A stretch of 59,588 nucleotides of DNA. It comes from a virus. Its lineage: Duplodnaviria; Caudoviricetes. The stretch spans positions 1 to 59,588 of the IMG/VR virus record IMGVR_UViG_3300035195_000305, one strand, 5' to 3'. The notes beneath the pieces were generated by a model. It saw only the letters and a list, made by a program, of their open reading frames with translations, was not told the origin of the DNA and made no database searches. This document shows, piece after piece, positions 9,276 through 45,925 of this stretch (position 1 is its first letter; every line of letters starts with the position of its first letter). Both the position numbers and the translations under genes were made by a program.

Positions 9276-9823
9276 TTAATCAAGAATCATCACAAAGACT
9301 TAAATCTTGGATTTTAAAAAACATAGATTTAATAAGATCTCAGAAACAATCACCAAGAGGACATAAGGGAGTGGTGTTTGGTCTTAGGGATTTACAAAGT
9401 CAAGACTTAAAAGAACTTTTAACCGCTCACTCATTTCCTTATAATGATTTAAAACACATTGAAGAGGAATTAATTAATACTTATAAAATTCCTTCAAAAA
9501 AGTATGCTGAGTCAGGCATAATGATGGTGTATTCTGAAAAAGGATATAAGTGTAAGTGGCACACCGATACTACAGATAATTTAGACGAATACACTACTCG
9601 CTTAAATGTATTGATTAGCAAACCAAAAGAAGGAGGAGAACCAATTATTAAAAAAAATAATGTAAAAGAAATTATTCCAGTAACTAAAAATAAACCCTGG
9701 ATATGTGTGGGGGGAAAATATGAGCATTCTACTGTAAAAACAGAAAGTGATGAGCCTCGAATTTTACTATCATTTGGATACGATGTCAATAAAAAAATAT
9801 TAGAAAATTTAGAATACATATAA
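9272..9823 (+). CDS. 2OG-Fe(II) oxygenase
   Basis: WHTD...RLNVLISKPKEGGEP...EHS...RILLSFG (HxD...H...R). Confidence 0.8.
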   Translation: MINQESSQRLKSWILKNIDLIRSQKQSPRGHKGVVFGLRDLQSQDLKELLTAHSFPYNDLKHIEEELINTYKIPSKKYAESGIMMVYSEKGYKCKWHTDTTDNLDEYTTRLNVLISKPKEGGEPIIKKNNVKEIIPVTKNKPWICVGGKYEHSTVKTESDEPRILLSFGYDVNKKILENLEYI

Positions 9824-10690: not shown

Positions 10691-13600
10691 ATGGCTAAAA
10701 TTGAAAACATCACAGTATATCCTACGGTAACTCCAGCGGATGATGATTTACTAATCGGAACTGACGTTAGTAATAATAATAAAACAGTCACATTTACAGT
10801 TGCTTCTATAGGGGCAGGTGGCCCTGGAATTCTTCAGGGTTTACAGTCAGTATTAGATACAAGTAATTTTGCTACACAAAGTATTGTTTTAACAGGTGGC
10901 CCTGGTCCGAATGGATATATAGATTTAAACCAAATACTACTAACAGGATCAGCAGGTGCTGCTGGTCAAGTTCTTACTTCTGGCGGTGGCGGTGGATTAG
11001 CAACATGGACAACTCCATCTCCAGGTGGCGGTGGAGAAAATATACAGCAAACTTTAGCTATCGGAAACACAACATCATTATCAATGATAATGAATGGTGC
11101 AGGTCAGCAGTTAAGTTTATCTGGGGGCACTGATCTTAACATAGCGGGCGCAGGTTCTAATATAAATGTAGGAGCATCTTCTAATCTTATTTTATCTGAT
11201 ACTTCTACTTTAAACTTTTCAACACTAACAACAATAAGTGATTATTCTGGTAACACAGGGGTGGCTGGACAAATACTATCTATAAATACTGCGGGTACAG
11301 GTGTAGAGTGGGGCACTTTACCTCCTCCTTCTACTCCAAGTTTACAACAAGTTTTAAACGTAGGTAATACAGCTATAGGTATAGGTATAAACCTAACAGC
11401 AGGATCTCCTTTAACTTTAGATGCAACTTCTAATATTGTTTCAAACGGAACTAATACGTTTAATGGAACTAATACTTTTACTTCTAATGTAGATCTTGAT
11501 GGTTGTTTAGAGGATGTAAATGGATCATGTGGAGTAGCTGGTCAAATACTAAGTTCTACTGTATCGGGAGTTCAGTGGGTTAATGCAGCGTCTTCTGTAG
11601 TGCCAACTTTACAAGTAGTATTAACTAATGGAGATACAGCTACTGAAGATATAAACCTTACAGGGAATATTGATCTTACAGGAAGCTTAGTGTTAGGGTC
11701 AAACACAACTATAAGCGCAAACTCTTCGGTTGGTACTCCAGGACAATATTTAACAGCTACAGCAACGGGCGTGGAGTGGACAACTAATGCAGCTGCAAAT
11801 CCTAATTTAGATCAGGTTTTAAGTGCAGGAAATACTTCAACACAAAATATTCTTCTTACAGGTACTGCTAATATAACAACACCAACAATTAGCCCTGGAG
11901 CTATAGCTGTGACCAATGGTACAGGTGGTGCTAATCAGATATTACAATCTAACGCAGGTGTTCTTTCTTGGGTAAATAATACTACTACAGGAATGACGAA
12001 CTTTCAGTTGAGTGCTGACGCTGGTCCTACTCAAACAGTAAATGATAGTGATATAGTTCAATTTCTTGGCGGTACAGGATTAAGCACTGTAACTTCTAAT
12101 ATAGATATTGTTACTGTTAATTTAGATAATACAACGGTAGTTCCAGGATCATATACATATACTGATCTTACTGTAAATGCTCAAGGTCAGATTACATCGG
12201 TTACTTCTAATCCGTCTCCTCCATCAGACACAACTTATGTTTTAGACTCAGTTCAAAATGGAACAGATTCAGATATAAAATTAACATCTTCTATTGGAGT
12301 TGTTGATACAGTAAAATTAGTAGCGGGAACTAATATCACACTTACAGATACGGGTAGTAATATAACAATAGCCGCAGCAGCAGGAGGTACGGGAATGACA
12401 AGCTTTACCGCTGCTGGAGATAGTGGATCTCAAACAATTACAGATGGTAATACTTTAACTATTGCGGGAGGAACGGGTATAGGAACAGCTGCATCTGCGG
12501 TTGATACAGTTACAGTAGGGCTTACTGCTTCAGGGGTTACAGCTGGTAGTTATACCAACACAGATCTTACTGTAGATATATACGGAAGAATAACAGCAGC
12601 TTCTAACGGGGCTTCTGGTGGTGGTGGCGTAACTTCAGTAACATTACAATCAGCAACAACTTCAGTAGGACCTTCTATGACTATAGCTCCAACAACAGGA
12701 GTAGTTTTAGTTACTCCTCACGCTTATAATGGAGGTAGTAACACAGGATTTGTTCCTGTAGGAGGAACATCAGCTAATGTTTTAGGTGGAGACGGAAATT
12801 GGAAAGGATTTATAGCTGGAAATGGAAATATTTCAACAGGCGCTGCAATTTCGGTAGTTGTAAACCCTAATAATATATTACTCTCGTCTCATGTTTATGC
12901 TGGTGGTGGATTTGTAGGGCATGTACCAGGAAATGGTACTGCAGGCACATACTTAGAGGGAGACGGTACATGGTCTACCCCATCTTCTTCATCTTACTCT
13001 TGGAATATAGCAGGTGGTGCTATATCATCAGGAAATGTAACTAATGGAACAATTGTAAAGTTTATTGGTGGTACTGGAATGACAGTAAGTATCGCTAATT
13101 CTTTTGATGTAACTCTTGATACTACTGCGGTTCTTACGGAATCAGTTAGTACAGCAGTTTCTACAGGTACTCCTTTAACCGCTACAATAGCTGCTAATAA
13201 TATTTCACTTGTATCTCATTCTTATGCTGGAGGATCTAATGTAGGGTACGTGCCATTAGGAGGTACAGCTGGTACTGTCCTTGATGGTACTGGAAACTGG
13301 ATTTCTCAAACTGCGGCAGGAGTAACTTCTGTAACAATACAGTCGGGCACGAATTCTACAGGAGCACCTATTTCACAAAATACAACAACAGGCGCTATAA
13401 CATGGACGCCTCATCAATATAATGGAGGGACTAATGTAGGTTATGTTCCTACAGGTTCAGGAGGAACAGCTACCTTATATTTAGACGGATCAGGAAACTG
13501 GAGTGCTCCAACAGGAACATTAACAAGCTTTATATTAGCGGGTAATGCCGGTACATCTACTGTAGATAACGGGGATAACGTTGGTCTTGTAGGAACAAAT

Positions 13601-14581
13601 GCTTCTGGAGGATTAAGTTTTTCGGTATCATCTGCTGGAACAAGTATAGCAATATTAGGAACAATAGTTCCAACTGGCGTAACTCCTGGTTCTTATACTA
13701 ATTCTGATATTACTGTAAATTCTGAAGGTCAAATTACCACTATAAGTAATGGTACGGGAGGAGGAATTACAAATGTACAACTTTCAGCAACAGGAACATC
13801 TACAGGGTTAAATGATTCTTTAGAAGTAAGTATTGTTGGTACTACAGCTTTTCTGACTCCTAATGTATTTGCTGGAGGAGTTAATGTTGGGAATGTTCCA
13901 AGTTCTGCTGCAGTACCAGCTTCAGCAGAAAGAATCCACATGTTAGCAGCTGATGGAACTTGGCAAACAACTGCAGCAACCTCAATGATAAGAGAAAGGT
14001 TCTCTGTAGCAGAGCAAAAGTATCAGGCTAATCAATATTGGGTTGCCAGAAGTCCTGAAAGCGGTGGGTTAGGAACTAATGATGTTAATATAACTCGTTT
14101 TTATCAATTTACAAACTCCTCTCCAGCAACAGCTGCAACCACATGGACTTCATTGCAATACGGTTCTGGTCAGATACTTCAACAGCCAAGCCTGCAATTT
14201 TCAAAACCAGGGACAGAAGAAAATATGATTACCGCAGCAACAGGAATATGTACTTATCACAGTAATGGTGCAACTCAATCAAATCCAATAGCCCATGTTT
14301 TTGAATTATGGCATGTAAATAATTATTGCACACTTACAAACGCTACAAAAGTAGGAGAGTTTAAATTTACCGTTACTGGAGGCCCTATGCCTATTAATGA
14401 TGATGGTGTTATACAATGTCAAGATATGGATTGGGGTGTTGCTACTGACGGACAAAAACTTGATCCAGGAGATGGTCTTATTTTAACTTATAAATTTGAT
14501 CCTCTTGCAAGCGGACAAACCCAAAATAGTGCTGATCTGTGGTTTGATTTAACCATGAAGTATCAGACAGCAATACTTTAA
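10691..14581 (+). CDS. Long tail fibre / receptor-binding protein
   Basis: 1296 aa, Gly/Thr/Ser-rich; repeated LQxVLxxGN, GSYTxxDxTVxxxGxIT and YxGGxxxGxVP...DGxW modules. Confidence 0.85.
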   Translation: MAKIENITVYPTVTPADDDLLIGTDVSNNNKTVTFTVASIGAGGPGILQGLQSVLDTSNFATQSIVLTGGPGPNGYIDLNQILLTGSAGAAGQVLTSGGGGGLATWTTPSPGGGGENIQQTLAIGNTTSLSMIMNGAGQQLSLSGGTDLNIAGAGSNINVGASSNLILSDTSTLNFSTLTTISDYSGNTGVAGQILSINTAGTGVEWGTLPPPSTPSLQQVLNVGNTAIGIGINLTAGSPLTLDATSNIVSNGTNTFNGTNTFTSNVDLDGCLEDVNGSCGVAGQILSSTVSGVQWVNAASSVVPTLQVVLTNGDTATEDINLTGNIDLTGSLVLGSNTTISANSSVGTPGQYLTATATGVEWTTNAAANPNLDQVLSAGNTSTQNILLTGTANITTPTISPGAIAVTNGTGGANQILQSNAGVLSWVNNTTTGMTNFQLSADAGPTQTVNDSDIVQFLGGTGLSTVTSNIDIVTVNLDNTTVVPGSYTYTDLTVNAQGQITSVTSNPSPPSDTTYVLDSVQNGTDSDIKLTSSIGVVDTVKLVAGTNITLTDTGSNITIAAAAGGTGMTSFTAAGDSGSQTITDGNTLTIAGGTGIGTAASAVDTVTVGLTASGVTAGSYTNTDLTVDIYGRITAASNGASGGGGVTSVTLQSATTSVGPSMTIAPTTGVVLVTPHAYNGGSNTGFVPVGGTSANVLGGDGNWKGFIAGNGNISTGAAISVVVNPNNILLSSHVYAGGGFVGHVPGNGTAGTYLEGDGTWSTPSSSSYSWNIAGGAISSGNVTNGTIVKFIGGTGMTVSIANSFDVTLDTTAVLTESVSTAVSTGTPLTATIAANNISLVSHSYAGGSNVGYVPLGGTAGTVLDGTGNWISQTAAGVTSVTIQSGTNSTGAPISQNTTTGAITWTPHQYNGGTNVGYVPTGSGGTATLYLDGSGNWSAPTGTLTSFILAGNAGTSTVDNGDNVGLVGTNASGGLSFSVSSAGTSIAILGTIVPTGVTPGSYTNSDITVNSEGQITTISNGTGGGITNVQLSATGTSTGLNDSLEVSIVGTTAFLTPNVFAGGVNVGNVPSSAAVPASAERIHMLAADGTWQTTAATSMIRERFSVAEQKYQANQYWVARSPESGGLGTNDVNITRFYQFTNSSPATAATTWTSLQYGSGQILQQPSLQFSKPGTEENMITAATGICTYHSNGATQSNPIAHVFELWHVNNYCTLTNATKVGEFKFTVTGGPMPINDDGVIQCQDMDWGVATDGQKLDPGDGLILTYKFDPLASGQTQNSADLWFDLTMKYQTAIL

Positions 14582-22004: not shown

Positions 22005-23150
22005 ATGGAAGAAAATAAAAATGAAACAATGGAACAGCCAAAGTTCATTGTTAAAGAAGTAACAGGTATTGAACAAAAATCAACTCAAGAAATAGAAAAA
22101 GAATTGCTTGAGAGGCATGAGGAAAAGTTTTCAGATAAAAAAGAGGAAACTGTAATTCCAGCTGCTGAAGAAAAAATAGAGGATTCATCACCTGAAAAAC
22201 CTAATTCTGACGGGTTAAATGATGAAAGTATTATTTCTTATATAAAAGAAAGATATGATAAAGATATATCTTCAGTAGACGAGTTGTTTTCTACAACAAA
22301 AACTAATGAAGAATTACCTGAAGATGTTTCGGCATACTTTAAGTATAAAAAAGAAACTGGACGTGGAATTAATGATTTTGTAAAATTACAACAAAATTAT
22401 GATGACATGGACAGCGATAAGGTGTTGTCTCAATATTATTCTCAAACTGAAGAAGGTTTAGATAGTGAGGATATTAAAGATTTAATGTTAGATAAGTTTG
22501 GTTATGATAAAGATTTAGATGAACCAAGTGATATTAAAAAAATTGAGAGAGCAAAAAAGAAAGAACTTGTAAAAGCTAAAAAGTTTTTTAATGAACAAAA
22601 AGATAAATACAACACTCCTCTTGAGTCAAGCGGGAGTGGATTATCTGACGAGGACAGAGAAAAATTTAACAGCTATAAAAGTTATATAGAAGAATCTACC
22701 AATGCTCAAGATGCACAAAAGAAAAGGTACGATTATTTTTTAGATAAGACCAATCAGGTCTTTAACGATGAATTCAAAGGTTTTGAGTTCTCTGTCGGAG
22801 AAAATAATTTTACGTTTAAACCTGGGGATGCTAATGAACTAAAGAGTAAGCAATCAGACGTTAACACGTTCGTAAACAAATTTATGGACAAGGAGACGGG
22901 TTTGATGAATGATGCTCAAGGATATCATAGAGCAATGTCAGTAGCTATGAATATTGATAAGTTTGCTGAATTTTTCTACAATCAAGGGGTGACTCAGACT
23001 GTAGATAGTGTAAGTAAAAAGTCTAAAAATATTAATATGGATATGCGTAAAACGCCTGTTTCATTAAATAAAAATGGATTACAAATCAAAGCTGTAGGTG
23101 ATACAAGTAGTGGTAGAGGACTCAAAATTAAAAGTATTAAAAAATTATAA
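22005..23150 (+). CDS. Capsid scaffolding protein (putative)
   Basis: Acidic helical 381-aa protein between portal and capsid. Confidence 0.7.
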   Translation: MEENKNETMEQPKFIVKEVTGIEQKSTQEIEKELLERHEEKFSDKKEETVIPAAEEKIEDSSPEKPNSDGLNDESIISYIKERYDKDISSVDELFSTTKTNEELPEDVSAYFKYKKETGRGINDFVKLQQNYDDMDSDKVLSQYYSQTEEGLDSEDIKDLMLDKFGYDKDLDEPSDIKKIERAKKKELVKAKKFFNEQKDKYNTPLESSGSGLSDEDREKFNSYKSYIEESTNAQDAQKKRYDYFLDKTNQVFNDEFKGFEFSVGENNFTFKPGDANELKSKQSDVNTFVNKFMDKETGLMNDAQGYHRAMSVAMNIDKFAEFFYNQGVTQTVDSVSKKSKNINMDMRKTPVSLNKNGLQIKAVGDTSSGRGLKIKSIKKL

Positions 23151-35594: not shown

Positions 35595-37568
35595 ATGGCG
35601 GTAGATCCAACTAAAGCAAAACGAGATATAAATTTTGATACGTTTGCTCCTGAAAAAGAAGGAAGTAGAATAAATTGGTTTGAGCAGGCTAATGTAATTA
35701 GTGACGCTGTTACTAAAGCTGCTAATAAACGTCAAAAACGTAAAGATGATATTGACGAAGATACAAAAACAAATTTAGATGCGTTAAATGAGTTAGAGTC
35801 TTTAGATAACAAAACATTAATGGATATGACTATTGACGGGTCTAACGATGCCGCTAATGTTATATATCAAGCTGAACAAGCAATGAAAAGGGGAGAGCTT
35901 AGACCTCAGGACTTTCAAAAACTAAAAAACAATATAAGCTCAGGCTTTACTCAGTTCCAAAAGAACGCTAAATCTTGGGATGAAGATTTTAAAAGATATA
36001 CCGAAAGAATGAATGGTAATCCAGAGTTAGGTCAGTCCAGTTCTTTAGAGCAGTATCTTGGTGAAAGAATGGAGTCATTTGGAAATCTTAAAAACTTACA
36101 GTTAGTTACTAATCCTGAGACGGGTATGTTGGCGTTTGGTAGAATAGACCCTGAGACAGGGGAGTTATTAACAGGTCCAGATGATTTAATTAGCATGAAT
36201 AGAATGACCGCTATTAGTAAGCAAGAGATTAATGAATATGATGTAGGTGAATTTATAGAGCAGGCTTCGGAAGAATTAGGAGCTTTCATTACAGCAGGTA
36301 GCGCATCAACTATGGGTAAGGATGGTGCTGGACCAAGAGCTGTTCTTACAATAGAAGACTTTATGCAAACTCCTGAGGCTGAGAAATATATATCAGAGAA
36401 AGCTGCAGCTGCAATGAGTAGTAATTATGAGATAGGTAGTATTTTAGCAGATAATGGTATTAAAAATGATGACGGAGAATTGTTTAGAGCGGGAGACCAA
36501 AGACAGTTTGATCAGTGGAATATAGATAATCCTGGTAATGAGGATAACAACCCTATTATTGTTATGGGGTATAAAGAGAATGGTGTACAGGTAGAGCCAG
36601 CTCTTACTAAAGCTCAAAGGGAAAAGGCTCAAGGTTTTATGGAGGATTCTTTAAAAGCTAAGTTAGGATATAAAGAAACATTAACAACTAAACAGGTTGT
36701 TCAGCCAAGACAGAAAAGTAATTATGAAATAGTTAAAGGAGATGAGAAAAAAACTTATAGTAACCTTGTAGATGTTGTAGATAGATTAATTAGTGGAGAT
36801 GAAAAAGCATCATCAGCTGCCGCTACAGAGCTTGCTAACTCTATTAATAGCAGAATGTCTAACAATAAAAACTTTAAACCAGTGCAGCTTATAGAAAGAG
36901 TAGGTGATAAGTTTATGGTTACAAAGAAAGGAGACCAGCCTATACCGATTGATGCTGTAGATTCTGAAGGAAATGATTTATCAGGAGATGAAATAGGAAG
37001 TAAGATATGGGATTTAGTTACAGGAGGGGGAGTTTCTTTTTCTGATGCTAAAGGAGATAAAGTATTAGGAGATAGAAATAAAACTGATGCAAGAGGAACA
37101 TTAACTAATGTAGCTCAAATTGAAAATGCAGACTATAATTCTAAGATTAGAATTGACGGTAAAGATGACGATGTGCAGACCTTTGTTGATGATATTACTG
37201 ATATAGGAGCTGGTTGGGATGAAACTGCAGAAGAAGTTGCTCCTCAATATTCAAATATCTTACAAGAGGTATTTAAAACATCTACTACTCCAGGTCTTAT
37301 TGAAGCATTTAAAGGAGAAGACATAAATGTTAAGGCAGACGGTAAGGCTCTTATATTTAAAATTGGAGAAATGACCTTTAAATATCCAAACGATATGGTT
37401 GATTGGAAGTCGACTGAGGATGCGAGTAGTGATAAGTGGGATGGAAGTGAAACTATTTGGCCAGCAATGCAGGATTTTATAGCTGAAGCTATTGCTCAGA
37501 AAAAAACTGGTAAGAAATACAAGAAAGAAACAACTAATGAAGGTGATAATATTTTAGAGGAAGAATAA
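35595..37568 (+). CDS. Internal virion / ejection protein (putative)
   Basis: 657 aa, charged helical, between ejection-type genes. Confidence 0.6.
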   Translation: MAVDPTKAKRDINFDTFAPEKEGSRINWFEQANVISDAVTKAANKRQKRKDDIDEDTKTNLDALNELESLDNKTLMDMTIDGSNDAANVIYQAEQAMKRGELRPQDFQKLKNNISSGFTQFQKNAKSWDEDFKRYTERMNGNPELGQSSSLEQYLGERMESFGNLKNLQLVTNPETGMLAFGRIDPETGELLTGPDDLISMNRMTAISKQEINEYDVGEFIEQASEELGAFITAGSASTMGKDGAGPRAVLTIEDFMQTPEAEKYISEKAAAAMSSNYEIGSILADNGIKNDDGELFRAGDQRQFDQWNIDNPGNEDNNPIIVMGYKENGVQVEPALTKAQREKAQGFMEDSLKAKLGYKETLTTKQVVQPRQKSNYEIVKGDEKKTYSNLVDVVDRLISGDEKASSAAATELANSINSRMSNNKNFKPVQLIERVGDKFMVTKKGDQPIPIDAVDSEGNDLSGDEIGSKIWDLVTGGGVSFSDAKGDKVLGDRNKTDARGTLTNVAQIENADYNSKIRIDGKDDDVQTFVDDITDIGAGWDETAEEVAPQYSNILQEVFKTSTTPGLIEAFKGEDINVKADGKALIFKIGEMTFKYPNDMVDWKSTEDASSDKWDGSETIWPAMQDFIAEAIAQKKTGKKYKKETTNEGDNILEEE

Positions 37569-37571
37569 AAC

Positions 37572-40500
37572 ATGGACAAGTTAGAACAAATGTACAATCT
37601 CTATGTAGAGAAAGGATTAATTTCAGAACTTAAAAGTCCATTTGAAAAGTGGTCTAAAGCTAATCCAGAGACGCAAATAAAGCTTTTTGAGTTAGGACAG
37701 AAAAAAGGGCTTTTTGGTGAAAACACCCAGATAGAATCTTTTTCCAACTTATGGAAGGTAAAAAAAAAAGACGATTCTCAGCCTATTGCAGAAGAGGAAG
37801 TTATGGAATCATCTACAGAACAAGTTCAGGATCAAGGTGGATCTTCGGATGTTTCGATATCGGAAAACGTAAGTGATTACGAAACTAAATTATTAGGAGG
37901 CGAGACTGAGACTGAGACTGAAACAGAGACAGAAGTTGTAGAAACTGATCCTGCTCGGTCTCAACAAGAGAGAGTATCAATGCCAGATATTCCTGAAGAC
38001 AACACTATACTTGAAGATGTTGTTGGAAAAAATTATTTAACAAATTTTATTGGAGATATATATCGTGCTGGAAAGCAAGGTTTTGTACAGGGTAATACTT
38101 CAGATGAAGGGTGGGAGCTTATGTATAAAGGAGCTGATTCAAACCCTGAAGATATAATGGAATTTTTACAAGCTCAAGAAGAAATTGCTGCGTTAGGTGA
38201 AAGTGATGAAATGCAAGAATTTAATAGGGTTTATGAAGATGCTGGTGGAGGTGCTTTGGGTTTTTTAAAAGGATTAGCTTATGCTGGACCTTTAAATGTT
38301 GTTGCTCAATTAGGCGCTCAAACTATGATGCAAATGCTTAACACTTCCTCAGCTACTGCGGCAGGAACTGTTGTTGCTGGTGGGGCCGGAGTTGGATCTT
38401 TAGCAGGTGGAGTAGGAGCTATCCCTGGCGCTATTGCTGCATTACCAGCAGCTTATGCGGCTTCAGGAGCTGCATTAGAAACAGGCTTGTCTTTTGCAGA
38501 GTTTTTAAGAGAGGCTGTAGAAGAGAATGGAGATTCATTTGATCAAAAAGGTATATCAAAAGTATTAGCTGATGAGGATAAAATGTTTAAAATCAGAGCC
38601 AAATCAGCAGGTAGAGGGGCTATAATAGGTATTGTAGATAGGTATAGCTTAAAGATGGGTGGTAAAATTATAGCTAATCAAGTTGTTAAGGGGGCAAGCA
38701 AAGGGAAAAGAGCTTTAACAGCTATGGGAGTAGAAGCCGGTGGAGGTGGTGTAGGAGAGACTGTAGCCAGAATAGCGGTAGGTCAAGATTTAGATGCTCG
38801 TGAAATTGGTTTTGAAACTATTGGAGGTACAGGAAAAGCAGGTGTTTCTTATGCTTACGGATCGTTGTTAGCAAGACCAAACTACAAGATAAATAGCGAT
38901 ACTAAAGAAGGTGAGGTAGACGTAAAGACTATGACTGATATGATTTTGAATTCAGATGACAAAGACTTTGCCGCTATGGATATTGAAATAAAGAACGACC
39001 CTACTTTAAAAGATTTAGCTGACAAAAGAAAAAAGAAATTAAAAATACAAAATACTATTTTAAGGGAAGTAGGTGCACAAAATATTCCTAATAAAGAAAC
39101 TTTAGATGAATTAGTAACATTAGAAACAGAGAAGGAAAATTTGGGAGCTCCTACTACAGAGGGTGGTAAAAAAAGATTAAGAGAAATTCAAGATAGAATT
39201 ATAGGTATATACAAGGGAGATATAAATGTTAAAGTTACTCAAACTGATGATGGTCAAGGTAATACGACTACAGAAACTATTGAGGTATCTAAAGAGTATG
39301 CTATAGAAAAATTATTGGAAGAAGGAAACGAAAACCCTACAGAGCAAGATGTTTCTGAGAAGCAAGCCCAACTTATGGAGGAGGGACAAGAAGCTATTAA
39401 TAAACTAAAACAAGAGCAAGATGCCATTCAAGAGTCAAGCCCAGAGAGCGTGGATGTACAAGAACAAACCGAAGTTAGCAGCGAGGTGGGAGATGGAAAC
39501 ACCGAGACAGTTGTTACCGAAGAGAGCGACAGCCAAGAAGGGCCCAGTTCTGAAGAGGTTACGCAAGAGGAAATAAATGAAGAGTCAAGAGACTTAGAAA
39601 CCCTAATAGATGGGGAGCCTACTGTAGTTGAAAACACTGAGGTAGTAGAAGAGGAGAGCAGACCATTAAAAGAAAAGATAAAAAATATAGTAGATAAAAT
39701 AGCTGATGGTAAAAATGGGTTTGCTAAGAAATGGTTTAACCCTATAGTTATGGAGCGTGCTGGAATAACTAAAGATGAAGATGTTAAGGAATACTATATA
39801 CAAAGTATAGAAAACGGAGAGGTTATAAATGATGCTAATAAAGAGTTTTTAAATAGTGAGTTTGAAAGGTTAGGGATAACTCCTCCTACTACAGAAAACA
39901 CTAATGCTCAAGAGGTAGCAAGAGAGTCTGCTGTTGAGGTTAATAATGAAACAGAAGGATTAAGTATTATAAACTCTAAAACAGGAGAGGCAGTAGAAAT
40001 GAGCGGGGCAAATGTTACAACGCCTAAAATAAATCCTGATGGAACTATAGAAAACAACTCTACTAATTTATTTATTGCAGATGATACAGTGGTAGAGGTA
40101 GACCCTGTCTATGAAAACCAGAAAGCTCAAGAGAAACAAGAGTCATTAATAACAGAGATTGCTAAAAAAGCAGTTAAGTCTATTAAGCAAATACTACCTG
40201 ATGTGCAGGTGGTTTTACATAGAACAGAAGCTGCTTACAATAAAGCTACTAATCAAAATTCACAAGGATCAAAAGGTAAAGGGGGTTCAAGAGGAATGTA
40301 TTCTTCAGGAACTAACACTATACATATTAATATGCCTCATGCAACTACCAGAACTATAGCTCATGAAGTTTTTCATGCGGTAGTAATGAGTAAATTTGAT
40401 GGAGCTAACTTAAAGGCAGTAACTGATAGAATGGTAAAGTCTTTACAGTCCAGCATTAAAGATACCAAAGTAAAAGCAGAGTTAGATGCTTTTGTAAAAA

Positions 40501-43500
40501 AATATACAGGAGATAATAAAAAATTTAGAAGTGAAGAGTATTTAGCTGAGCTAACAGGGATGTTGTCAGAAAATTACACCTCTTTAAATACGGAGGAAAA
40601 AAGTCTTGTTAAAAGATTGCTACAAAAATTAGGTAATATGCTTGGTATTAAGGCAGAGGTTAGTACTCAAGATGAAGTAGTTAACTTATTAAATGTATTG
40701 TCTGGGAAGATAAGAGAAGGAGGAGAGGTTAGTATGCAGGATATAAAAGGACTTCAAGAAGTAGATAAAGTAAATACTGAAGAAAAAATAAAACAGCAGC
40801 AAGAATATGAATCAGCAATGGATGCGCAGAGGGCTGAGGTCGAAAAAAATGATAAACTACCATCCGGAATAAATGCTTGGTTGGCTGATAATTTAGGGAA
40901 GGTACATGTAGCTGATTATAAAAAATATGGAGACCCTAATTATATTGAGAAAGACGGAAGAAAAGGTTTAAATAAATTACTAAGAAAAACTGGAGAACGA
41001 GATGTTGATGTAATAAATGATCCTTTCAATGATGACGGGTTAGCTTATTTAGACCCTGAAGTTATTATAGGTTATTTAGAAGATAGGGCTGCTAATCCTG
41101 GTAAGTATAGTGCTAAAAATTTAGATAAAGCAAGAAAATTAGATAGGTTTCAGAAGTTCACTACGACCCCTAATAAATTAGCTAATTTTTATAAGATGAA
41201 TAAGAAAGGGTTTATAAAGCCTGAAAATGTATATGATTCTAATGATTTAAAACAATGGGCTTCTCGTGTAGGATTGAAAGTGGATGAGTCTCGTGGGGAT
41301 AAAGGAGAAATTACAAGCTACTACCTAAGAGATAGTGATGATAAAATATTTAAACCCTCTAAAGACAGAATGCAGGTGATATTTAATTCTCAGGACTCTG
41401 ATAGTCAAGTAATTAACAAGGCTCGTGAGATGGACTTTAGTGATGCAGCTATTAAGGATTATTTAAAAAGAATAAGAAAGGTTTCAGCTTCAGCTGCAGA
41501 CGCTATGCTTAAGGCTAAAACTGAAAGAGAGATAAGTATACCAGTTGTATTCGGAAATGTAGAGGGAGGAATGAAAGTAGGAGAAGGTATATTTAATGAT
41601 GTAAACACTAAGCTTACAGAGTTTATTACAAAGAATAGCCCTAACAATGCGGAGATAAGAGAGAAAGGTATTTCTTTATTAGAAAAAAATGAAGAGTTTC
41701 AAGCCCAGCCAAAATCAGTTCAGAATGATTTAGTAAGTGGTTTTGATAGATCTTTACAAACAACTGCTAATAGAACGGTTCAAAAGAAAATAAGTTCTAT
41801 TCGTAAAGAAATACGAACAAGAAAAGAAGGTGCTTCCAGTTTAGCAAAAAGTAAAGCAAGGTTAAAACAATTTATAAGAACTCAACTTCCTGTTTCAAAA
41901 AAATATTCTAAGTCAGATATATTAAAGCTAACGAATCTAATAGCTAACGCTTCTGAAAAAACTTTTTTAGCAGACGCAGAAAAAGCTTTGCAAGTTGTAG
42001 AAAAGCAAAGAGGTGTTTTAAAAAAATCATTATTTAAAGATATTTTAAATTTAGTAAACAAGAAGGCTTCTAAAAAAACTACAGATAGTGGTAAGGTTAG
42101 AAGTAAAGGTTTAGATGCTGCTGGTCAGCAATTTTTTAGATCAGTCAAAACTATACTTACTGCCGCTATTAAAGGAGATGTTGATGTGTTGGCTTCTATA
42201 ACTGAAAAGTTAAGAGCGGACAACGTGGAGATAGGTGGGACTGTTATAAATGTAAACGATGCTTTGACTAAAGAATTAAACGGAGAGCAGTTAACTGTAA
42301 AAGAACAAATGTTATTAGAGCAAATTTATGCTTTAGATACTTTTGGTAATATATCTAACATGAGCTTAGAGGATGTTCAATCCTTGTATGATGGTTTTAA
42401 AGATGTCAGAGCAGAGTCAATTAAAAGATTAGCAGTTAAAAGGTTATCAAGAGCAGAAAACCAAAATAAATTAAATGAAGAATCTTCGGCTCAAATTAAA
42501 GAGAACTATCCCTTCTTATATAATCCAGACGGAACATTAAAAGATAAGAATGATTTAGATAGAGATGCCAGTAGTACTTGGAATGATTTTCAAAAACTAA
42601 AAATATGGAAAGGACTACAGACTTTTGTAGACAGATATCCATTTACAACTGGTTTAGGTATATCAGACTTCTTTAGAAATAAAATTGCACACTTAGGTAC
42701 TGTCACTAATATTATGGACAATGTAGCTAAGGGTAATAATTTCTTTAGAGAGAATGTTTATGATAAGCTTAACCTGATGCACACTAAAGCTTTAGAAGGG
42801 GAGAGGGCTATTATAAAGTCTAACGATAAAGGGTTAGGAAAAATTGCCAATACTATAGAGGGAATAACTAAAGGTTATGCTGAGTGGAAAAGTAAAATAC
42901 CAAGAGGGCAAAGAATTATTTATGGTAAATTTAAAGGAGGAGCGAGAGAGAGGTCTCACACTATAGATGAGATGATGCGTATTTATGCTTTAAGTAAAAA
43001 TGATATACAAAAAGGAAAGTTAGAGAAGATGGGTTATGATGCGGAAGTGTTAGACCAGATCACCAGAGAGATAACTCCTTTGGCTACTGAGTTTATAGAT
43101 AAGACTGTAGATTACTTAAGTAATGAATATTTTGAGGAAACAAACTCTACATACCGTCAAGTAAATGACGTAAACTTAGGCTTTGTAGCTAACTACTTTC
43201 CAACACAAAGTATATCTCCTTCTGTGGATGGTTTGATTACTGAGGGCGATTTTAATGGAGTGTTTAATGCTGAGTATGATTCTGCTTTTAAATCACGTAT
43301 TGATAGAGAGTCTGATGTAAAAATAGAAAATTTATTATTTACAAATGTATTAGAGTCTCATATTAAAAGCATGGAAAGATACAAGTCTTATGCTGAGGGC
43401 ACTAAAACTTTAAATAATATATTTAAAAGTGCAGATGTAAATACTTTAGCTCAAGAACTGGGTATAAGAGGATTGATGAAAAATATGGTTAACATGGCTG

Positions 43501-44786
43501 TTAACCCTAACTCAGGACTTAAATTATCTAACACTAAGTTAGATACCTTGCAGCGTAAATTTACTTCATTTGCACTGTCATTTAAGTTTATGCAGATACC
43601 TAAGCAGGCCACTTCATTTATTAATGCTTTTGAAGACTACAACTATAGAGGTGAGGGTAAGACAAGAATACCAGGGATGGACACCTTAGGCTTCATGATG
43701 GATATGGCTAAAATAATAGCAACACTACCTAAGCAGATTAAAAAAGCTCGTAATATTTCAGCTGATTTTTCTGCTCGTTTAGATCAAGGACTGGAGGGTG
43801 ATGTGTATGGATTGGAAAGTGGTAGTAGAGTATTTAAACCATTAAGAGGAAGGTCTAAGGCGGCTAAATTTATACAAGCCCTTAAGACTGGAGCTGCTTC
43901 TCCTACTGTTATAGGAGATGTTATGGGGGTAATGGGATATATGGCTAACTACAATAGAAATATTGCAAATGGAATGTCTAAAGCTGAGGCACTACAGGCT
44001 TTTAATAACTATAATGCTACTCAGCAAAGTCGTAGAAGTACAGATAAAAACATGATGCAGCTTCAAGGAGATGGTTTAACAAGAGCGTTCACTATGTTTG
44101 GCAGCACATTGTTTCTGCAAATGAATAAAGTAATGTCCAGTACTGCTAACATAATGAGGTCTTTAAAAGAAGGAGACATAACGTCTAAACAAGGTCTTAA
44201 AAAGAAAGCAGGAGCTGTAAGAGCCAAAGACATAAGGGCTTTGAGTTTAAATTTTGCTCTTGCTAACATGTTGTTTATTGCTACAGCTAATATTTTTAAA
44301 CTATCTGAAGGAGGGGAGGATGAAGAAGAGGCTATGGAAAAAATCAAAGAGGCCGCTATGGGCTTAACACTTCTTTATCAAGTTCCTTTAATAGGTGGTG
44401 GTGCTGAAGCAGTTGTTAATGCTATTAAGGGGAAAAGAAGTTATAACAATGATGTTGTTAACCCTTACACAAGTGTATTTAGAAAAATAAGCAAAGGATT
44501 TAAAAAAGAAAGTACTTTTGATGCGTTAAGACCAGTGGCTGAAATTGCATTAGGAGCACAATTTGATCCGTTTATTGGTTTATTTAATACTTTAGGCGTG
44601 GAGATAGATGATGCGAGTGAAGAAGAAAACTTATTCAGAATGTTAGGGGTAAGTCCTTCTTATCAGCCTAACTCCGTAAAAAGTGGTTCTAAGAGTAAAG
44701 AGGGTATGGGCCCAAGAGGTGGTAGTCCAAGAGGTGGGTCTAAAAGGAAGAAAGATTCTGGGGGTAGATTGAACCAGCCAAGATAG
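37572..44786 (+). CDS. Giant internal virion (polyvalent-type) protein with zincin metallopeptidase-like domain
   Basis: 2404 aa; Gly/Ala hydrophobic segments; RGMY...IHINM...TIAHEVFHAV...EEYLAE (HExxH + E). Confidence 0.75.
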   Translation: MDKLEQMYNLYVEKGLISELKSPFEKWSKANPETQIKLFELGQKKGLFGENTQIESFSNLWKVKKKDDSQPIAEEEVMESSTEQVQDQGGSSDVSISENVSDYETKLLGGETETETETETEVVETDPARSQQERVSMPDIPEDNTILEDVVGKNYLTNFIGDIYRAGKQGFVQGNTSDEGWELMYKGADSNPEDIMEFLQAQEEIAALGESDEMQEFNRVYEDAGGGALGFLKGLAYAGPLNVVAQLGAQTMMQMLNTSSATAAGTVVAGGAGVGSLAGGVGAIPGAIAALPAAYAASGAALETGLSFAEFLREAVEENGDSFDQKGISKVLADEDKMFKIRAKSAGRGAIIGIVDRYSLKMGGKIIANQVVKGASKGKRALTAMGVEAGGGGVGETVARIAVGQDLDAREIGFETIGGTGKAGVSYAYGSLLARPNYKINSDTKEGEVDVKTMTDMILNSDDKDFAAMDIEIKNDPTLKDLADKRKKKLKIQNTILREVGAQNIPNKETLDELVTLETEKENLGAPTTEGGKKRLREIQDRIIGIYKGDINVKVTQTDDGQGNTTTETIEVSKEYAIEKLLEEGNENPTEQDVSEKQAQLMEEGQEAINKLKQEQDAIQESSPESVDVQEQTEVSSEVGDGNTETVVTEESDSQEGPSSEEVTQEEINEESRDLETLIDGEPTVVENTEVVEEESRPLKEKIKNIVDKIADGKNGFAKKWFNPIVMERAGITKDEDVKEYYIQSIENGEVINDANKEFLNSEFERLGITPPTTENTNAQEVARESAVEVNNETEGLSIINSKTGEAVEMSGANVTTPKINPDGTIENNSTNLFIADDTVVEVDPVYENQKAQEKQESLITEIAKKAVKSIKQILPDVQVVLHRTEAAYNKATNQNSQGSKGKGGSRGMYSSGTNTIHINMPHATTRTIAHEVFHAVVMSKFDGANLKAVTDRMVKSLQSSIKDTKVKAELDAFVKKYTGDNKKFRSEEYLAELTGMLSENYTSLNTEEKSLVKRLLQKLGNMLGIKAEVSTQDEVVNLLNVLSGKIREGGEVSMQDIKGLQEVDKVNTEEKIKQQQEYESAMDAQRAEVEKNDKLPSGINAWLADNLGKVHVADYKKYGDPNYIEKDGRKGLNKLLRKTGERDVDVINDPFNDDGLAYLDPEVIIGYLEDRAANPGKYSAKNLDKARKLDRFQKFTTTPNKLANFYKMNKKGFIKPENVYDSNDLKQWASRVGLKVDESRGDKGEITSYYLRDSDDKIFKPSKDRMQVIFNSQDSDSQVINKAREMDFSDAAIKDYLKRIRKVSASAADAMLKAKTEREISIPVVFGNVEGGMKVGEGIFNDVNTKLTEFITKNSPNNAEIREKGISLLEKNEEFQAQPKSVQNDLVSGFDRSLQTTANRTVQKKISSIRKEIRTRKEGASSLAKSKARLKQFIRTQLPVSKKYSKSDILKLTNLIANASEKTFLADAEKALQVVEKQRGVLKKSLFKDILNLVNKKASKKTTDSGKVRSKGLDAAGQQFFRSVKTILTAAIKGDVDVLASITEKLRADNVEIGGTVINVNDALTKELNGEQLTVKEQMLLEQIYALDTFGNISNMSLEDVQSLYDGFKDVRAESIKRLAVKRLSRAENQNKLNEESSAQIKENYPFLYNPDGTLKDKNDLDRDASSTWNDFQKLKIWKGLQTFVDRYPFTTGLGISDFFRNKIAHLGTVTNIMDNVAKGNNFFRENVYDKLNLMHTKALEGERAIIKSNDKGLGKIANTIEGITKGYAEWKSKIPRGQRIIYGKFKGGARERSHTIDEMMRIYALSKNDIQKGKLEKMGYDAEVLDQITREITPLATEFIDKTVDYLSNEYFEETNSTYRQVNDVNLGFVANYFPTQSISPSVDGLITEGDFNGVFNAEYDSAFKSRIDRESDVKIENLLFTNVLESHIKSMERYKSYAEGTKTLNNIFKSADVNTLAQELGIRGLMKNMVNMAVNPNSGLKLSNTKLDTLQRKFTSFALSFKFMQIPKQATSFINAFEDYNYRGEGKTRIPGMDTLGFMMDMAKIIATLPKQIKKARNISADFSARLDQGLEGDVYGLESGSRVFKPLRGRSKAAKFIQALKTGAASPTVIGDVMGVMGYMANYNRNIANGMSKAEALQAFNNYNATQQSRRSTDKNMMQLQGDGLTRAFTMFGSTLFLQMNKVMSSTANIMRSLKEGDITSKQGLKKKAGAVRAKDIRALSLNFALANMLFIATANIFKLSEGGEDEEEAMEKIKEAAMGLTLLYQVPLIGGGAEAVVNAIKGKRSYNNDVVNPYTSVFRKISKGFKKESTFDALRPVAEIALGAQFDPFIGLFNTLGVEIDDASEEENLFRMLGVSPSYQPNSVKSGSKSKEGMGPRGGSPRGGSKRKKDSGGRLNQPR
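39421..39576 (+). CDS. Overprinted 51-aa basic protein in the +1 frame of the giant gene
   Basis: MPFKSQAQRAWMYKNKPKLAARWEMETPRQLLPKRATAKKGPVLKRLRKRK; A-rich leader; locally raised GC. Confidence 0.7.
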   Translation: MPFKSQAQRAWMYKNKPKLAARWEMETPRQLLPKRATAKKGPVLKRLRKRK

Positions 44787-45218: not shown

Positions 45219-45585
45219 ATTTTATTTGATCATTGCTATCTCTGTTTCTATTATACTGGTCTACGATAAAGTTTTTGTTATAATTTTTACGCTCTGCTTC
45301 CAGCTTGTAATAAAGAAAAGCTTGAAATCCGTTTAGATGTGAGTCGGTAGGAAAGAAATATTTCCATCCTTTAGACATTCCTTTTGCTATATAATAACAA
45401 AATGCTACCCCTATTTTCCCAGTGTTTTTTTTAAAATTAATTACAGCTGTGTGGTCTGATGTTGGTATAACTTCTTCTACCTCGAAGCTTTCTTTAGAAA
45501 CATTACCTTCTCTGTCTGTCCGGGAAAATCTCTCTGCTATTACTTGGCTAAACTTATGCAGTTCTTTTGCTATTTGTTTATTCAT
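45202..45585 (-). CDS. Hypothetical protein
   Basis: 127 aa, overlapping neighbours. Confidence 0.75.
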   Translation of the reverse strand: MNKQIAKELHKFSQVIAERFSRTDREGNVSKESFEVEEVIPTSDHTAVINFKKNTGKIGVAFCYYIAKGMSKGWKYFFPTDSHLNGFQAFLYYKLEAERKNYNKNFIVDQYNRNRDSNDQIKYEHEI

Positions 45586-45925
45586 TTTTTTTTCTTGTAT
45601 GAGTCACTACTCTATGGCAATTAGCACATCTGATTTCACACTTATCTATTTCTTTTTTTATTGTTTCTATGCTATAAGAATTTCTAACCATATTTGAAAT
45701 ACACATTATTTTTTTTCCTCTTACGTGATCAAAATCTAATACTAATGGATTGGTTTCTCCGCAGTCTATACATTTAGATATGCTTTTAATTGCATCAATA
45801 TATTCTTTAGCTTTTCTTCTTTGACTTTTATTTCTTAAATAAGATCTTTTTTTTATCTTTTTTTTATTAGCCTCATAATGACGTTTAGATGCAGCAGCCT
45901 GATCTTTTTTATCTTTATAAGCCAT
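45578..45925 (-). CDS. HNH endonuclease-like protein
   Basis: CIDCG...LDFDHV...KCEIRCANCHR. Confidence 0.85.
   Translation of the reverse strand: MAYKDKKDQAAASKRHYEANKKKIKKRSYLRNKSQRRKAKEYIDAIKSISKCIDCGETNPLVLDFDHVRGKKIMCISNMVRNSYSIETIKKEIDKCEIRCANCHRVVTHTRKKNE

What the first reader, a model, noticed from the sequence alone, without database searches (positions are those of the whole stretch)
39421..39576. Overprinted gene hidden inside the 2404-aa virion protein
Seen: a 51-aa ORF in the +1 frame (MPFKSQAQRAWMYKNKPKLAARWEMETPRQLLPKRATAKKGPVLKRLRKRK, 17 K/R) with an A-rich leader like the real genes here. The stretch is visibly more G/C-rich, and the host frame reads as an acidic low-complexity linker (DAIQESSPESVDVQEQ...) using codons atypical for this genome. 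From memory, MPFKSxAQRxWM...PxxAxRWExETP...LP is a small protein family found as stand-alone genes in phages. Inference: a real dual-coding region that standard gene callers miss, pairing a very basic peptide with an acidic linker.
Basis: partly seen in the sequence, partly recalled or inferred. Interest (0 to 1): 0.78.

Follow-up and report, generated by a model that had tools for sequence, protein, structure and literature searches.

The report
Small basic gene nested in giant gene
A 51-residue, very basic protein gene really is hidden in the +1 reading frame of a phage's 2404-residue structural gene, it belongs to a large uncharacterised phage family that also occurs as ordinary stand-alone genes, and it is kept by selection in dozens of related phages although annotations omit it.

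Summary
The ORF at 39421-39576 (+) encodes the stated 51 aa in frame +1 of the 2404-aa gene, in a G+C-rich stretch whose host-frame codon usage is the most atypical in that gene.

A profile finds 4263 cluster representatives, nearly always starting at residue 1. Members stand alone in Streptomyces, cyanobacterial and marine phages.

In a sample of 80 viral contigs chosen through a host-protein domain, not the peptide:
- 64 carry the ORF nested in frame +1 with ATG at family position 1.
- 5 have it just after the giant gene's stop.
- 5 complete giants lack it, and one of these keeps a decayed fossil.

Substitutions in the overlap follow the peptide's codon phase, while the flanking domain follows the host's. 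Nested copies are recoded to remove the roughly five host-frame stops that stand-alone copies carry.

The nested ATG has a real start-site context: an A-run at -14 to -11 and little RNA structure in low-G+C phages, and Shine-Dalgarno-like motifs in high-G+C ones.

A sister group nests the same gene in the gene between portal and capsid. A cultured Flavobacterium phage has an unannotated copy.

I conclude it is a functional nested gene. Its function is unknown, and de novo "overprinting" of the peptide is unlikely.

The parts
39421..39576 (+). Nested small-protein gene (51 aa plus stop) in frame +1 of the giant gene. Residues 1-28 form the conserved N-terminal helical-hairpin module. Residues 29-51 form a conserved LP motif and a K/R-rich tail.
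   Evidence: ORF and translation; family; AF2 model, pLDDT 83.9, helices 6-15 and 17-26; substitution phase
39401..39420 (+). Leader of the nested start. It is A-rich and unstructured, with TAAAA at -15..-11 (39406-39410). The TAA at 39406-39408 is also the closing stop of the nested frame upstream.
   Evidence: A at -13 in 39 of 39, -14 in 33, -12 in 32, -11 in 33 unique nested leaders; Baez et al. 2019, section 15: A-run -14..-11 with A-12/A-13 as positive determinants in Flavobacterium johnsoniae
37572..44786 (+). Host gene: a 2404-aa mosaic giant protein, the last gene of the + strand structural block. Its homologue in a cultured relative is annotated 'structural protein'.
37986..39404 (+). 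Conserved N-terminal domain of the giant protein ('module A', aa 139-611; phrog_32588 region, with a Gly/Ala-rich hydrophobic stretch). It lies just upstream of the overlap and was used as a peptide-independent probe for relatives.
39420..39578 (+). Host-frame reading of the overlap: an acidic, hydrophilic linker (17 D/E, 0 K/R in 53 codons). It is part of a longer acidic stretch, about aa 581-700.
   Evidence: host-frame pN/pS 1.67
22005..23150 (+). 381-aa gene between portal and major capsid gene. It carries no nested ORF here, but in a sister group its homologues (33-38% identity) host the same family in frame +1, 30-63 codons from their start.

Best explanation
The ORF at 39421-39576 is a functional protein-coding gene nested in frame +1 of the giant structural gene.

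Proposed expression: ribosomes start independently at its ATG on the late mRNA that also encodes the giant protein. They are guided by a Bacteroidia-type start context, an A-run at -14..-11 and little secondary structure. Relatives that infect Shine-Dalgarno-using hosts carry an SD-like motif instead.

The product is a 51-aa protein: an N-terminal two-helix module (M-P-F-K-S-x-A-Q-R-x-W-M-Y-x-N-x-P-x-x-A-x-x-W-E-x-E-T-P), an LP motif and a polybasic tail.

The same nucleotides, read one base earlier, give the giant protein a hydrophilic acidic linker. That linker's sequence is free to vary as long as it stays open.

Shown here: homology to stand-alone genes, conservation of ORF and ATG, substitution phase, recoding that removes host-frame stops, and start-site features.

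Inferred: translation itself.

Function is a weaker inference, about 0.3. The gene sits in or beside genes for the giant structural protein or the gene between portal and capsid, which by its place may be a scaffold. The module also caps many unrelated larger phage proteins at residue 1. I therefore think the module is an adaptor or targeting element of virion-internal proteins, and the short form is a polycationic internal or nucleic-acid-binding protein made together with them.
For: (1) Family. tblastn hits all begin at query residue 1 on small stand-alone ORFs:
- Streptomyces phage FlowerPower gp48 (annotated)
- marine phage 023Pt_psg01 (annotated, 39 aa)
- phage C75C1 and Prochlorococcus phage P-RSP2 (unannotated gaps)

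A word-indexed search gave 4 hits, E 6e-18 to 9e-7. A profile of 97 members gave 4263 representatives at E<=1e-3 and 796 at E<=1e-10, and the match starts at residue 1-3 in most of the 150 listed.

(2) Host-selected sample. 80 loci were found through module A, which excludes the overlap. Of these:
- 64 have the ORF nested, all 64 in frame +1 with ATG at family position 1.
- 5 have it 4-10 nt after the giant gene's stop.
- 1 has a host frameshift just upstream.
- 5 contigs end before the site.
- 5 complete giants lack it.

(3) Phase switch. In 44 unique overlaps, differences fall at host codon positions 1/2/3 as 8794/6974/5070. In module A of the same genomes they fall as 91950/70648/140158. 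Peptide identity is 0.677 against a host-frame identity of 0.526 over the same bases (936 of 946 pairs), and module A identity is 0.522.

In the peptide-selected set of 30 unique overlaps, pN/pS is 0.35 (nested frame), 1.67 (host frame) and 0.84 (third frame).

(4) Close relatives at about 92% nucleotide identity. The peptide is 50/51 and 51/51 identical. 5 of 6 substitutions in the overlap are at peptide position 3 and none at host position 3. Gene-wide, host position 3 takes 384/577 and 345/589.

(5) Recoding. The host-equivalent frame has 0 stops in 77 of 77 unique nested copies. It has a mean of 5.3 in 41 non-nested copies, none of them stop-free. Phe3 is TTC in 75/75 nested copies and TTT in 24/38 non-nested ones.

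(6) Start context.
- Window leader: 60% A, in the top 2.4% of internal out-of-frame ATGs.
- MFE over -30..+30 is -1.9 kcal/mol. Real starts average -2.5. Internal ATGs average -7.5, and 1.7% are as open.
- A-run conserved in 39 unique leaders, matching.
- SD-like motif in 6 of 6 nested leaders in loci of G+C 0.41-0.62, against 40 of 529 internal out-of-frame ATGs there.

(7) Loss leaves a fossil. L135 keeps an open acidic host linker, while the nested frame is duplicated at its start and broken by stops.
Against: - There is no direct evidence of translation or of the protein. No proteomics, ribosome profiling or RNA data were examined.
- The overlap is not significantly less diverged than other parts of the gene in the two close relatives. 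21.5% and 7.2% of 156-nt windows are as conserved, and the phase argument there rests on only 6 substitutions.
- Five complete giant genes lack the ORF, so it is dispensable in some lineages.
- Many loci are near-duplicates: 64 nested loci give 44 unique overlaps.
- Module A was aligned from peptide-bearing genes, so the 'unbiased' sample may still lean towards the clade that nests the gene.
- The function proposal has no direct support. Fusion partners are diverse (46 of 57 long representatives are singletons; gly-zipper motifs in only 10 of 57). There is no fold or family match. Stand-alone copies also occur outside structural modules.
Confidence: 0.85

Rival explanations
1. Silent fossil. 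A formerly stand-alone small gene was engulfed when flanking genes fused into the giant ORF. It is no longer expressed, and its frame merely has not decayed yet.
For: Giant proteins are mosaic. The family is mainly stand-alone elsewhere. A decayed copy exists in L135, and 5 complete giants lack the ORF.
Against: Nested-frame synonymous sites are near saturation (pS 0.67), yet the peptide is kept (pN/pS 0.35). ATG is kept in 64 of 64 nested copies. The peptide is more conserved than the host's own conserved domain (0.677 against 0.522). Start-site signals are conserved and change with host type. Engulfment would also have required removing about 5 host-frame stops.
Confidence: 0.06
2. Frameshift product. 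The basic sequence is not made on its own. It is added as a C-terminal tail to a truncated giant protein (about 616 aa) by programmed +1 ribosomal frameshifting.
For: The ORF is same-strand and in frame +1, inside a long translated gene. Such tails are known in phage structural genes (general knowledge; review PMC5009743, seen in the search listing only).
Against: A stop closes the nested frame 4 codons before the ATG in the window and in 22 of 39 unique leaders. ATG sits at family position 1 in 64 of 64 nested copies. Stand-alone homologues and 5 copies placed just after the giant gene begin with the same Met. No slippery motif was looked for systematically.
Confidence: 0.03
3. The gene is real but is a lysis peptide. 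It would be a disruptin-like cationic peptide that attacks the host envelope late in infection, and nesting in a late gene gives it late timing.
For: Its size and charge resemble phiKT gp28, a 56-aa cationic disruptin (abstract of 10.1101/515445). The Streptomyces phage FlowerPower homologue lies between genes annotated peptidase and holin. No lysis genes were recognised among the 20 window ORFs scanned.
Against: The conserved part is a specific two-helix module with invariant M1 P2 S5 Q8 P17, not a generic amphipathic helix. The module heads many larger proteins (57 of 150 listed representatives are 120 aa or longer). It occurs in phages of hosts without an outer membrane. Most contexts are head or virion genes.
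Confidence: 0.1
4. Chance ORF produced by the purine-rich composition of an acidic linker.
For: Acidic E/D-rich coding reads as K/R-rich one base out of phase.
Against: There is specific homology to stand-alone genes. The substitution phase follows the nested frame. ATG and stop are conserved.
Confidence: 0.01

Closest known systems
Embedded two-component spanin genes (lambda Rz/Rz1 type)
   Same: A small phage gene lies wholly inside a larger one in frame +1 and is usually missed by gene callers. Related systems also occur with the small gene overlapping or separate (PMC6139136: abstract and passages; 182 embedded, 228 overlapped, 118 separated of 528).
   Different: - The product has no lipoprotein signal or Cys (sequence).
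- The host gene is a giant structural gene or the gene between portal and capsid, not an inner-membrane lysis protein.
- One and the same family is found nested, adjacent and fully stand-alone. That paper reports no spanin family mixing embedded with the other architectures.
- The same small gene is nested in two unrelated host genes.
ShiLan-type out-of-frame insertion in a phage methylase gene (hidden HNH endonuclease)
   Same: An insert reads through without stops in the host's frame while encoding its own protein in another frame. The host-frame reading is thought to be a tolerated loop (PMC11855218, abstract).
   Different: There is no endonuclease here: no Pfam or PHROG nuclease match, only 51 aa, and no His or Cys. 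No clean presence/absence boundaries or homing were shown. The insert is conserved vertically across a whole phage group.
phrog_1375 (unknown function) and the unnamed 'MPFKS...' small phage protein family
   Same: The N-terminal module of family members matches phrog_1375 positions 17-60 at E 5e-5 to 0.46. It shares motif, length and start at residue 1.
   Different: The window's own peptide gives no PHROG hit at E<=10. The PHROG has no function assigned.
phiKT gp28 disruptin (cationic lysis peptide)
   Same: Small (56 aa against 51 aa), strongly cationic and phage-encoded (abstract of 10.1101/515445).
   Different: No sequence relation was tested. The conserved helical-hairpin module and its use as an N-terminal domain of larger proteins have no counterpart there.

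Membership tests
Unnamed 'MPFKS' small basic phage protein family (defined here by alignment A3) | N-terminal motif starting at Met1: M1 P2 (F3 K4) S5 .. Q8 .. P17 .. A20 .. (L32 P33) | tested here: met
   These columns are invariant or at least 90% conserved in 97 sequences with the window peptide as first row. Profile hits start at residue 1-3 in most listed representatives.
Unnamed 'MPFKS' small basic phage protein family (defined here by alignment A3) | Significant sequence similarity to independently called stand-alone genes | tested here: met
   E 5.8e-18, 5.7e-10, 6.6e-7 and 9.4e-7 against 5.8 billion proteins. Annotated stand-alone genes exist in FlowerPower and 023Pt_psg01.
Unnamed 'MPFKS' small basic phage protein family (defined here by alignment A3) | Two-helix N-terminal module followed by a basic tail | tested here: met
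   AF2 with the 97-sequence alignment gives pLDDT 83.9, helices 6-15 and 17-26, and an extended remainder. This is a prediction only.
phrog_1375 | Match to the PHROG profile | tested here: inconclusive
   The window peptide has no hit at E<=10. Relatives hit at E 5.4e-5 to 0.46 over profile positions 17-64.
Pfam DUF3008 (PF11450) | Match to the Pfam profile at or above its cut-off | tested here: not met
   No Pfam hit at E<=10 for the peptide and none at E<=1 for 10 relatives. The DUF3008 profile finds nothing in the window at E<=10. The only link is an ESM-Atlas feature score of 0.84, below the tool's own 0.9 line.
Embedded spanin pair (Rz/Rz1 type) | Small gene wholly embedded in another frame of the larger gene | tested here: met
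Embedded spanin pair (Rz/Rz1 type) | Embedded product is an outer-membrane lipoprotein (signal peptide with lipobox Cys), and the host is an inner-membrane protein in a lysis cassette | tested here: not met
   The peptide has no Cys and no hydrophobic N-terminus. The host is the last gene of the structural block, with virion-protein PHROG neighbours.
Out-of-frame homing-endonuclease insertion (ShiLan type) | Hidden ORF encodes an HNH or other homing endonuclease | tested here: not met
   No Pfam, PHROG or NCBIfam nuclease match. The peptide is 51 aa with no His or Cys.
Out-of-frame homing-endonuclease insertion (ShiLan type) | Sharp presence/absence polymorphism at a fixed target site | tested here: inconclusive
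   Giants without the ORF (L105, L147, L154, L168) diverge from the others over the whole linker, so no boundaries could be drawn.
Programmed frameshift extension | No independent start, and the nested frame is open back to a slippery site in the host frame | tested here: not met
   ATG at family position 1 in 64 of 64 nested copies. A stop lies 4 codons upstream in 22 of 39 unique leaders.

The most novel reading that the evidence does not exclude
The small gene and its out-of-phase acidic reading form a portable dual-coding cassette. Its -1-phase translation is a harmless hydrophilic linker, so the gene can be parked inside disordered linkers of unrelated capsid-internal proteins. Here those are the giant structural protein in one phage group and the protein encoded between portal and capsid in a sister group, always in the same frame relation. 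It can also leave again to sit just downstream. Nesting would tie its synthesis in place and time to the proteins that fill the capsid. Its N-terminal two-helix module, which also heads hundreds of unrelated larger phage proteins, would be a general tag that brings cargo into the virion.
Probability: 0.25. Interest if true: 0.85.

Novelty: new variant of a known kind. Interest (0 to 1): 0.72.

Why it matters
Fully nested, out-of-frame genes in double-stranded DNA phages are textbook for spanins and otherwise rarely documented. Gene callers discard them by design.

This case is unusually clean. The nested gene has thousands of ordinary stand-alone relatives to compare with. It is nested in two unrelated host genes. 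Natural controls exist in near relatives: the gene sits just outside the host gene, or has decayed inside it. A cultured Flavobacterium phage carries an unannotated copy, so the case can be tested at the bench.

It adds a missing gene to a whole group of marine and freshwater Flavobacteriia phages. It also flags a very large uncharacterised N-terminal module of phage proteins. Finally, it shows how a polybasic gene and an acidic linker can share the same bases at little cost.

Tried and rejected
Searches that found nothing:
- Pfam, PHROGs and NCBIfam on the window peptide gave no hits.
- Pfam on 10 relatives and on 10 long relatives gave only weak or partner-domain hits: NUDIX in one, sub-threshold AAA in one.
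- The DUF3008 lead from the ESM Atlas (0.84) was tested with the Pfam profile on the window and rejected.
- A PDB profile search gave two chance-level rows at E 0.16.
- Foldseek against PDB gave nothing at E<=0.001, and VIA-align wide gave nothing at Z>=2. A 51-aa two-helix model is a poor query, so this says little.
- blastn of the region and tblastn of the giant's first 616 aa against 50,697 phage records gave no match. The first 616 aa gave none even though a relative, MW202828.1, is in that collection.
- The profile found no family member at E<=0.1 in Cellulophaga phages phi13:2 and phi38:1 or in Tenacibaculum phage Gundel_1.

Analyses that did not settle a question:
- Lower divergence in the overlap in close relatives was seen but is not significant.
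- The peptide tree (108 unique 36-aa cores, 37 columns) is mostly unresolved, so one or several origins of nesting cannot be told apart. Well-supported branches force at least 5 changes of the nested-in-giant label. One row was a spurious second regex hit on a long branch.
- Ser5 codon family (AGY against TCN) was tried as a marker of common origin. Nested copies are 70 of 72 AGY and stand-alone 19 of 34. This could equally reflect selection for a hydrophilic linker.
- The link of the module to ejection-type proteins through glycine zippers is weak, 10 of 57.
- Source names for 7 family proteins: none recorded.

The genomic contexts of the 4263 representatives therefore could not be read.
- The look-up of sequencing runs and read laying were not run, because RNA coverage would not separate nested from host translation.

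Rows left out:
- One search's strict motif pattern classified 69 of the 80 loci L005-L084 and missed 11.
- One search left out L019 and L083 (short overlaps with neighbouring ORFs only) and the MW202828.1 copy.
- One search left out one nested copy cut short by a contig end.
Full report
OBSERVATION

The window is a whole, about 98% complete, 59,588-bp virus record. The ORF at 39421..39576 (+) is present.

G+C is 0.46-0.47 over 39375-39599, against about 0.3-0.37 in most of the gene. The host frame reads as an acidic stretch, with 17 D/E and no K/R in 53 codons. The codons it uses there are the least typical of any 53-codon window of the giant gene: mean RSCU 1.04, against a gene mean of 1.56, and GC3 0.453 against 0.236.

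The 20 bases before the ATG are 60% A. Real gene starts in this genome average 0.56 (n=44). Only 2.4% of 635 internal out-of-frame ATGs reach 0.60. All parts of the observation are confirmed.

THE PHAGE AND THE HOST GENE

The + strand block carries, in order:
- terminase (phrog_6681)
- portal (phrog_6547)
- a 381-aa gene
- a capsid-type structural protein
- further 'virion structural protein' PHROGs

The giant gene is the last gene of this block. Helicase-primase genes follow on the other strand.

The terminase is 73% identical to an uncultured podovirus record, MW202828.1. It is 37-45% identical to Flavobacterium 'elemo', Cellulophaga and Tenacibaculum podophages. The likely host is therefore a member of the Flavobacteriia; this is an inference.

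The giant protein matches only phrog_32588 (unknown function) over aa 115-603. It has an HEVFH motif at aa 931. Relatives are mosaics of shared modules. Its counterpart in the cultured phage elemoA_7-9A is annotated 'structural protein'.

IS THE PEPTIDE FAMILY REAL?

Pfam and PHROGs give nothing for the peptide.

tblastn against 50,697 phage records gave 10 weak hits (E 0.03-0.2). All begin at query residue 1. They fall on small stand-alone ORFs:
- an annotated 72-aa gene of Streptomyces phage FlowerPower
- an annotated 39-aa gene of marine phage 023Pt_psg01
- unannotated gaps in phage C75C1 and Prochlorococcus phage P-RSP2

The 5.8-billion-protein search gave four small proteins at E 6e-18 to 9e-7.

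A 97-sequence alignment has M1, P2, S5, Q8 and P17 invariant. F3, K4, A20, L32 and P33 are at least 90% conserved. Its profile finds 4263 cluster representatives at E<=1e-3 and 796 at E<=1e-10.

Of the 150 listed representatives, 60 are 70 aa or shorter, 33 are 71-119 aa and 57 are 120 aa or longer. The longer ones carry the module at their N-terminus.

It has no name. The only library model that touches it is phrog_1375, of unknown function, at E 5e-5 to 0.46 for relatives. DUF3008, suggested weakly by the ESM Atlas (0.84), fails a direct test.

IS THE NESTED COPY MAINTAINED?

First sample: loci found through the peptide. 391 of 599 candidate stretches encode a relative, and the 80 best were kept. 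My motif script classified 69 of these 80.
- 19 lie inside same-strand open frames of more than 1000 codons.
- 13 lie inside a gene of about 380-410 codons, or a truncated one.
- Others stand alone.
- Four sit directly after a gene of about 1980 codons.

Including the window and MW202828.1, all 34 nested cases are in frame +1 of their host.

This sample is chosen by the peptide, so I drew a second one through the host. I aligned the conserved domain upstream of the overlap (module A, aa 139-611, overlap excluded) and searched with it. 226 of 350 candidates were relatives, and 80 loci were kept. A family HMM run on six-frame translations gave:
- 64 of 80 with the ORF nested in the module-A gene, all 64 in frame +1 with ATG at family position 1
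- 5 with it 4-10 nt after the giant gene's stop
- 1 (L153) with a frameshift in the host just upstream
- 5 contigs that end before the site
- 5 complete giants (2096-2509 codons) without it

One of those five, L135, keeps an open acidic linker. Its nested frame shows a duplicated start of the family motif followed by stops, which is a decayed fossil.

WHICH FRAME IS UNDER SELECTION?

In the 44 unique overlaps of the host-selected sample, over the first 28 codons:
- Pairwise differences fall at host codon positions 1/2/3 as 8794/6974/5070.
- In 263 ungapped codon columns of module A from the same genomes, they fall as 91950/70648/140158.

The usual third-position excess of the host frame disappears in the overlap. 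It reappears at the peptide's third position.

Peptide identity is 0.677 against 0.526 for the host reading of the same bases (936 of 946 pairs). It also exceeds that of module A, 0.522.

In the peptide-selected set (30 unique overlaps), pN/pS is 0.35 in the nested frame, 1.67 in the host frame and 0.84 in the third frame.

Two close relatives are about 92% identical over the giant gene. Their peptides are 50/51 and 51/51 identical. Of 6 substitutions in the overlap, 5 are at the peptide's third position and none at the host's third position. Gene-wide, the host's third position takes 384 of 577 and 345 of 589. With a gene-wide host-position-1 share of 248/1166, my hand calculation gives about 0.002 for 5 or more of 6.

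The lower overall divergence of the overlap is not significant by itself. 21.5% and 7.2% of windows are as conserved.

IS THE HOST FRAME ALSO CONSTRAINED?

Yes, but only to stay open and hydrophilic.
- In 41 unique non-nested copies, the equivalent frame holds on average 5.3 stops, and none is stop-free. In 77 of 77 unique nested copies it holds none.
- Phe3 is TTC in 75 of 75 nested copies, because TTT would create TAA in the host frame. It is TTT in 24 of 38 non-nested ones.
- Pro2 never ends in T in 72 nested copies but does in 14 of 34 stand-alone ones.
- Copies placed just after the giant gene use the A/T-rich codons typical of these genomes.

This is genuine dual coding. The phages with the gene just outside the host gene serve as natural controls.

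HOW IS IT EXPRESSED? (inferred)

The window's nested start is as unstructured as real starts. MFE over -30..+30 is -1.9 kcal/mol, real starts average -2.5, and internal out-of-frame ATGs average -7.5, with 1.7% as open.

In 39 unique nested leaders, A is found at:
- -13 in 39
- -14 in 33
- -12 in 32
- -11 in 33
- -6 in 31

T is found at -15 in 30.

Baez et al. 2019 (PMC6847099, abstract and section 15 read) report an A-run at -14 to -11. They find A-12, A-13, A-6 and A-3 to be positive determinants of initiation in Flavobacterium johnsoniae, which does not use Shine-Dalgarno pairing.

In six nested loci of G+C 0.41-0.62, the leader instead has a GGAG-type motif, 6 of 6. Among internal out-of-frame ATGs in the same loci the figure is 40 of 529. 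The start signal changes with the presumed host type, as expected for a real start.

A stop closes the nested frame 4 codons before the ATG in the window and in 22 of 39 leaders. This argues against a frameshift origin of the product.

A SECOND HOST GENE, AND A CULTURED EXAMPLE

In 13 loci the family is nested, again in frame +1, 30-63 codons into a gene of about 380-410 codons between portal and capsid genes. These hosts are 33-38% identical to the window's own 381-aa ORF 22005-23150, which has no nested ORF. The same small gene is thus nested in two unrelated structural genes in related phages.

MW202828.1 has a divergent two-Cys variant nested at about aa 865 of its 3859-aa giant. The record lists only the giant CDS.

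The cultured Flavobacterium phage vB_FspP_elemoA_7-9A has a 42-aa variant at aa 1220 of gp21 (3694 aa), also in frame +1 and unannotated.

WHAT THE PROTEIN MIGHT DO

AlphaFold2 with the family alignment gives two short helices (6-15, 17-26) and an extended basic tail, pLDDT 83.9. No solved structure or family resembles it.

The module heads many longer proteins with very diverse C-terminal parts. 46 of 57 are singletons by BLAST. One has a NUDIX domain, and 10 have glycine-zipper motifs.

Stand-alone copies mostly lie among head and virion genes, though not always.

My best guess, at about 0.3, is an adaptor or targeting module of virion-internal proteins. The short form would be a polycationic internal or nucleic-acid-binding protein.

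A disruptin-like lysis role is a rival, at about 0.1 (phiKT gp28, abstract read).

It is not evidence of binding, and I did not test binding.

ORIGIN

The family is far wider than the giant gene, so the peptide was probably not born inside it. The acidic linker is more likely the younger reading.

Turning a stand-alone copy into a nested one needs about five stops removed, so a single recoding followed by transfer of the dual-coded stretch between host genes is attractive. The peptide tree is too poorly resolved to test this. It only shows that well-supported branches force several changes of state.

COMPARISON WITH WHAT IS KNOWN

Embedded spanins (Rz/Rz1) are the classical nested +1 genes of phages. 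They too are missed by gene callers (PMC6139136). The ShiLan out-of-frame HNH insertion is the closest conceptual analogue of a read-through insert with a hidden gene (PMC11855218, abstract). This case shares the architecture with both, but not the proteins, the host genes or the biology.

Four literature searches found no report of this nested gene or motif. The library lacks most subscription journals.

VERDICT

It is a new variant of a known kind.

Noticed in passing
L135:11217-11333 (viral contig locus; host frame open, +1 frame broken): Decayed fossil of the nested gene. The first 8-9 codons of the family motif are tandemly duplicated, with Pro2 changed to Leu, and stops follow. The host frame reads a repeated acidic DAVQESSTD.. 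linker.
   Followed up: partly
L086 (MW202828.1) about 9578-9724 minus strand; L175 (NC_055852.1 54224-54352): A two-cysteine subfamily of the nested peptide (..KACY..NPKWDCKKW..) occurs in the uncultured relative and in the cultured Flavobacterium elemo phages. The Cys pair is absent from the window's copy and might bind metal or form a disulfide.
   Followed up: no
window 40362-40376: HEVFH (HExxH zinc-protease-like) motif at aa 931 of the giant protein. The surrounding module (aa about 773-1090) is shared with several other giants, including ones where the small gene is stand-alone.
   Followed up: no
window 38328-38573 (giant protein aa 253-334): Gly/Ala-rich hydrophobic stretch in module A with a weak DUF6861 match (E 8.5e-4, below the cut-off). 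Similar glycine-zipper stretches occur in 10 of 57 long proteins that carry the family module at their N-terminus.
   Followed up: partly
L153:11500-11650: The host giant frame is interrupted 35 nt before the nested ATG and continues in another frame. This is either an assembly indel or a genuinely split giant gene, and near-identical relatives are uninterrupted.
   Followed up: partly
L001:2501-2623 (P-RSP2) and L002:2501-2605 (C75C1): Even stand-alone family members are unannotated in these two public phage records. They sit in gaps between annotated genes.
   Followed up: yes
window 10691-14581 and 35595-37568: Large ORFs of 1296 aa and 657 aa have no PHROG match at E<=1e-5. No tRNA genes were found in the whole window.
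   Followed up: no
window 45578-45925 (-): An HNH endonuclease homologue (phrog_2255, E 1.4e-24) lies just downstream of the giant gene on the opposite strand.
   Followed up: no
L079:6001-7017; P0077; P0015: The family module sits at residue 1 of much larger proteins: 338 aa of unknown function, a 505-aa NUDIX-domain protein, and a 296-aa protein with a P-loop-like region.
   Followed up: partly
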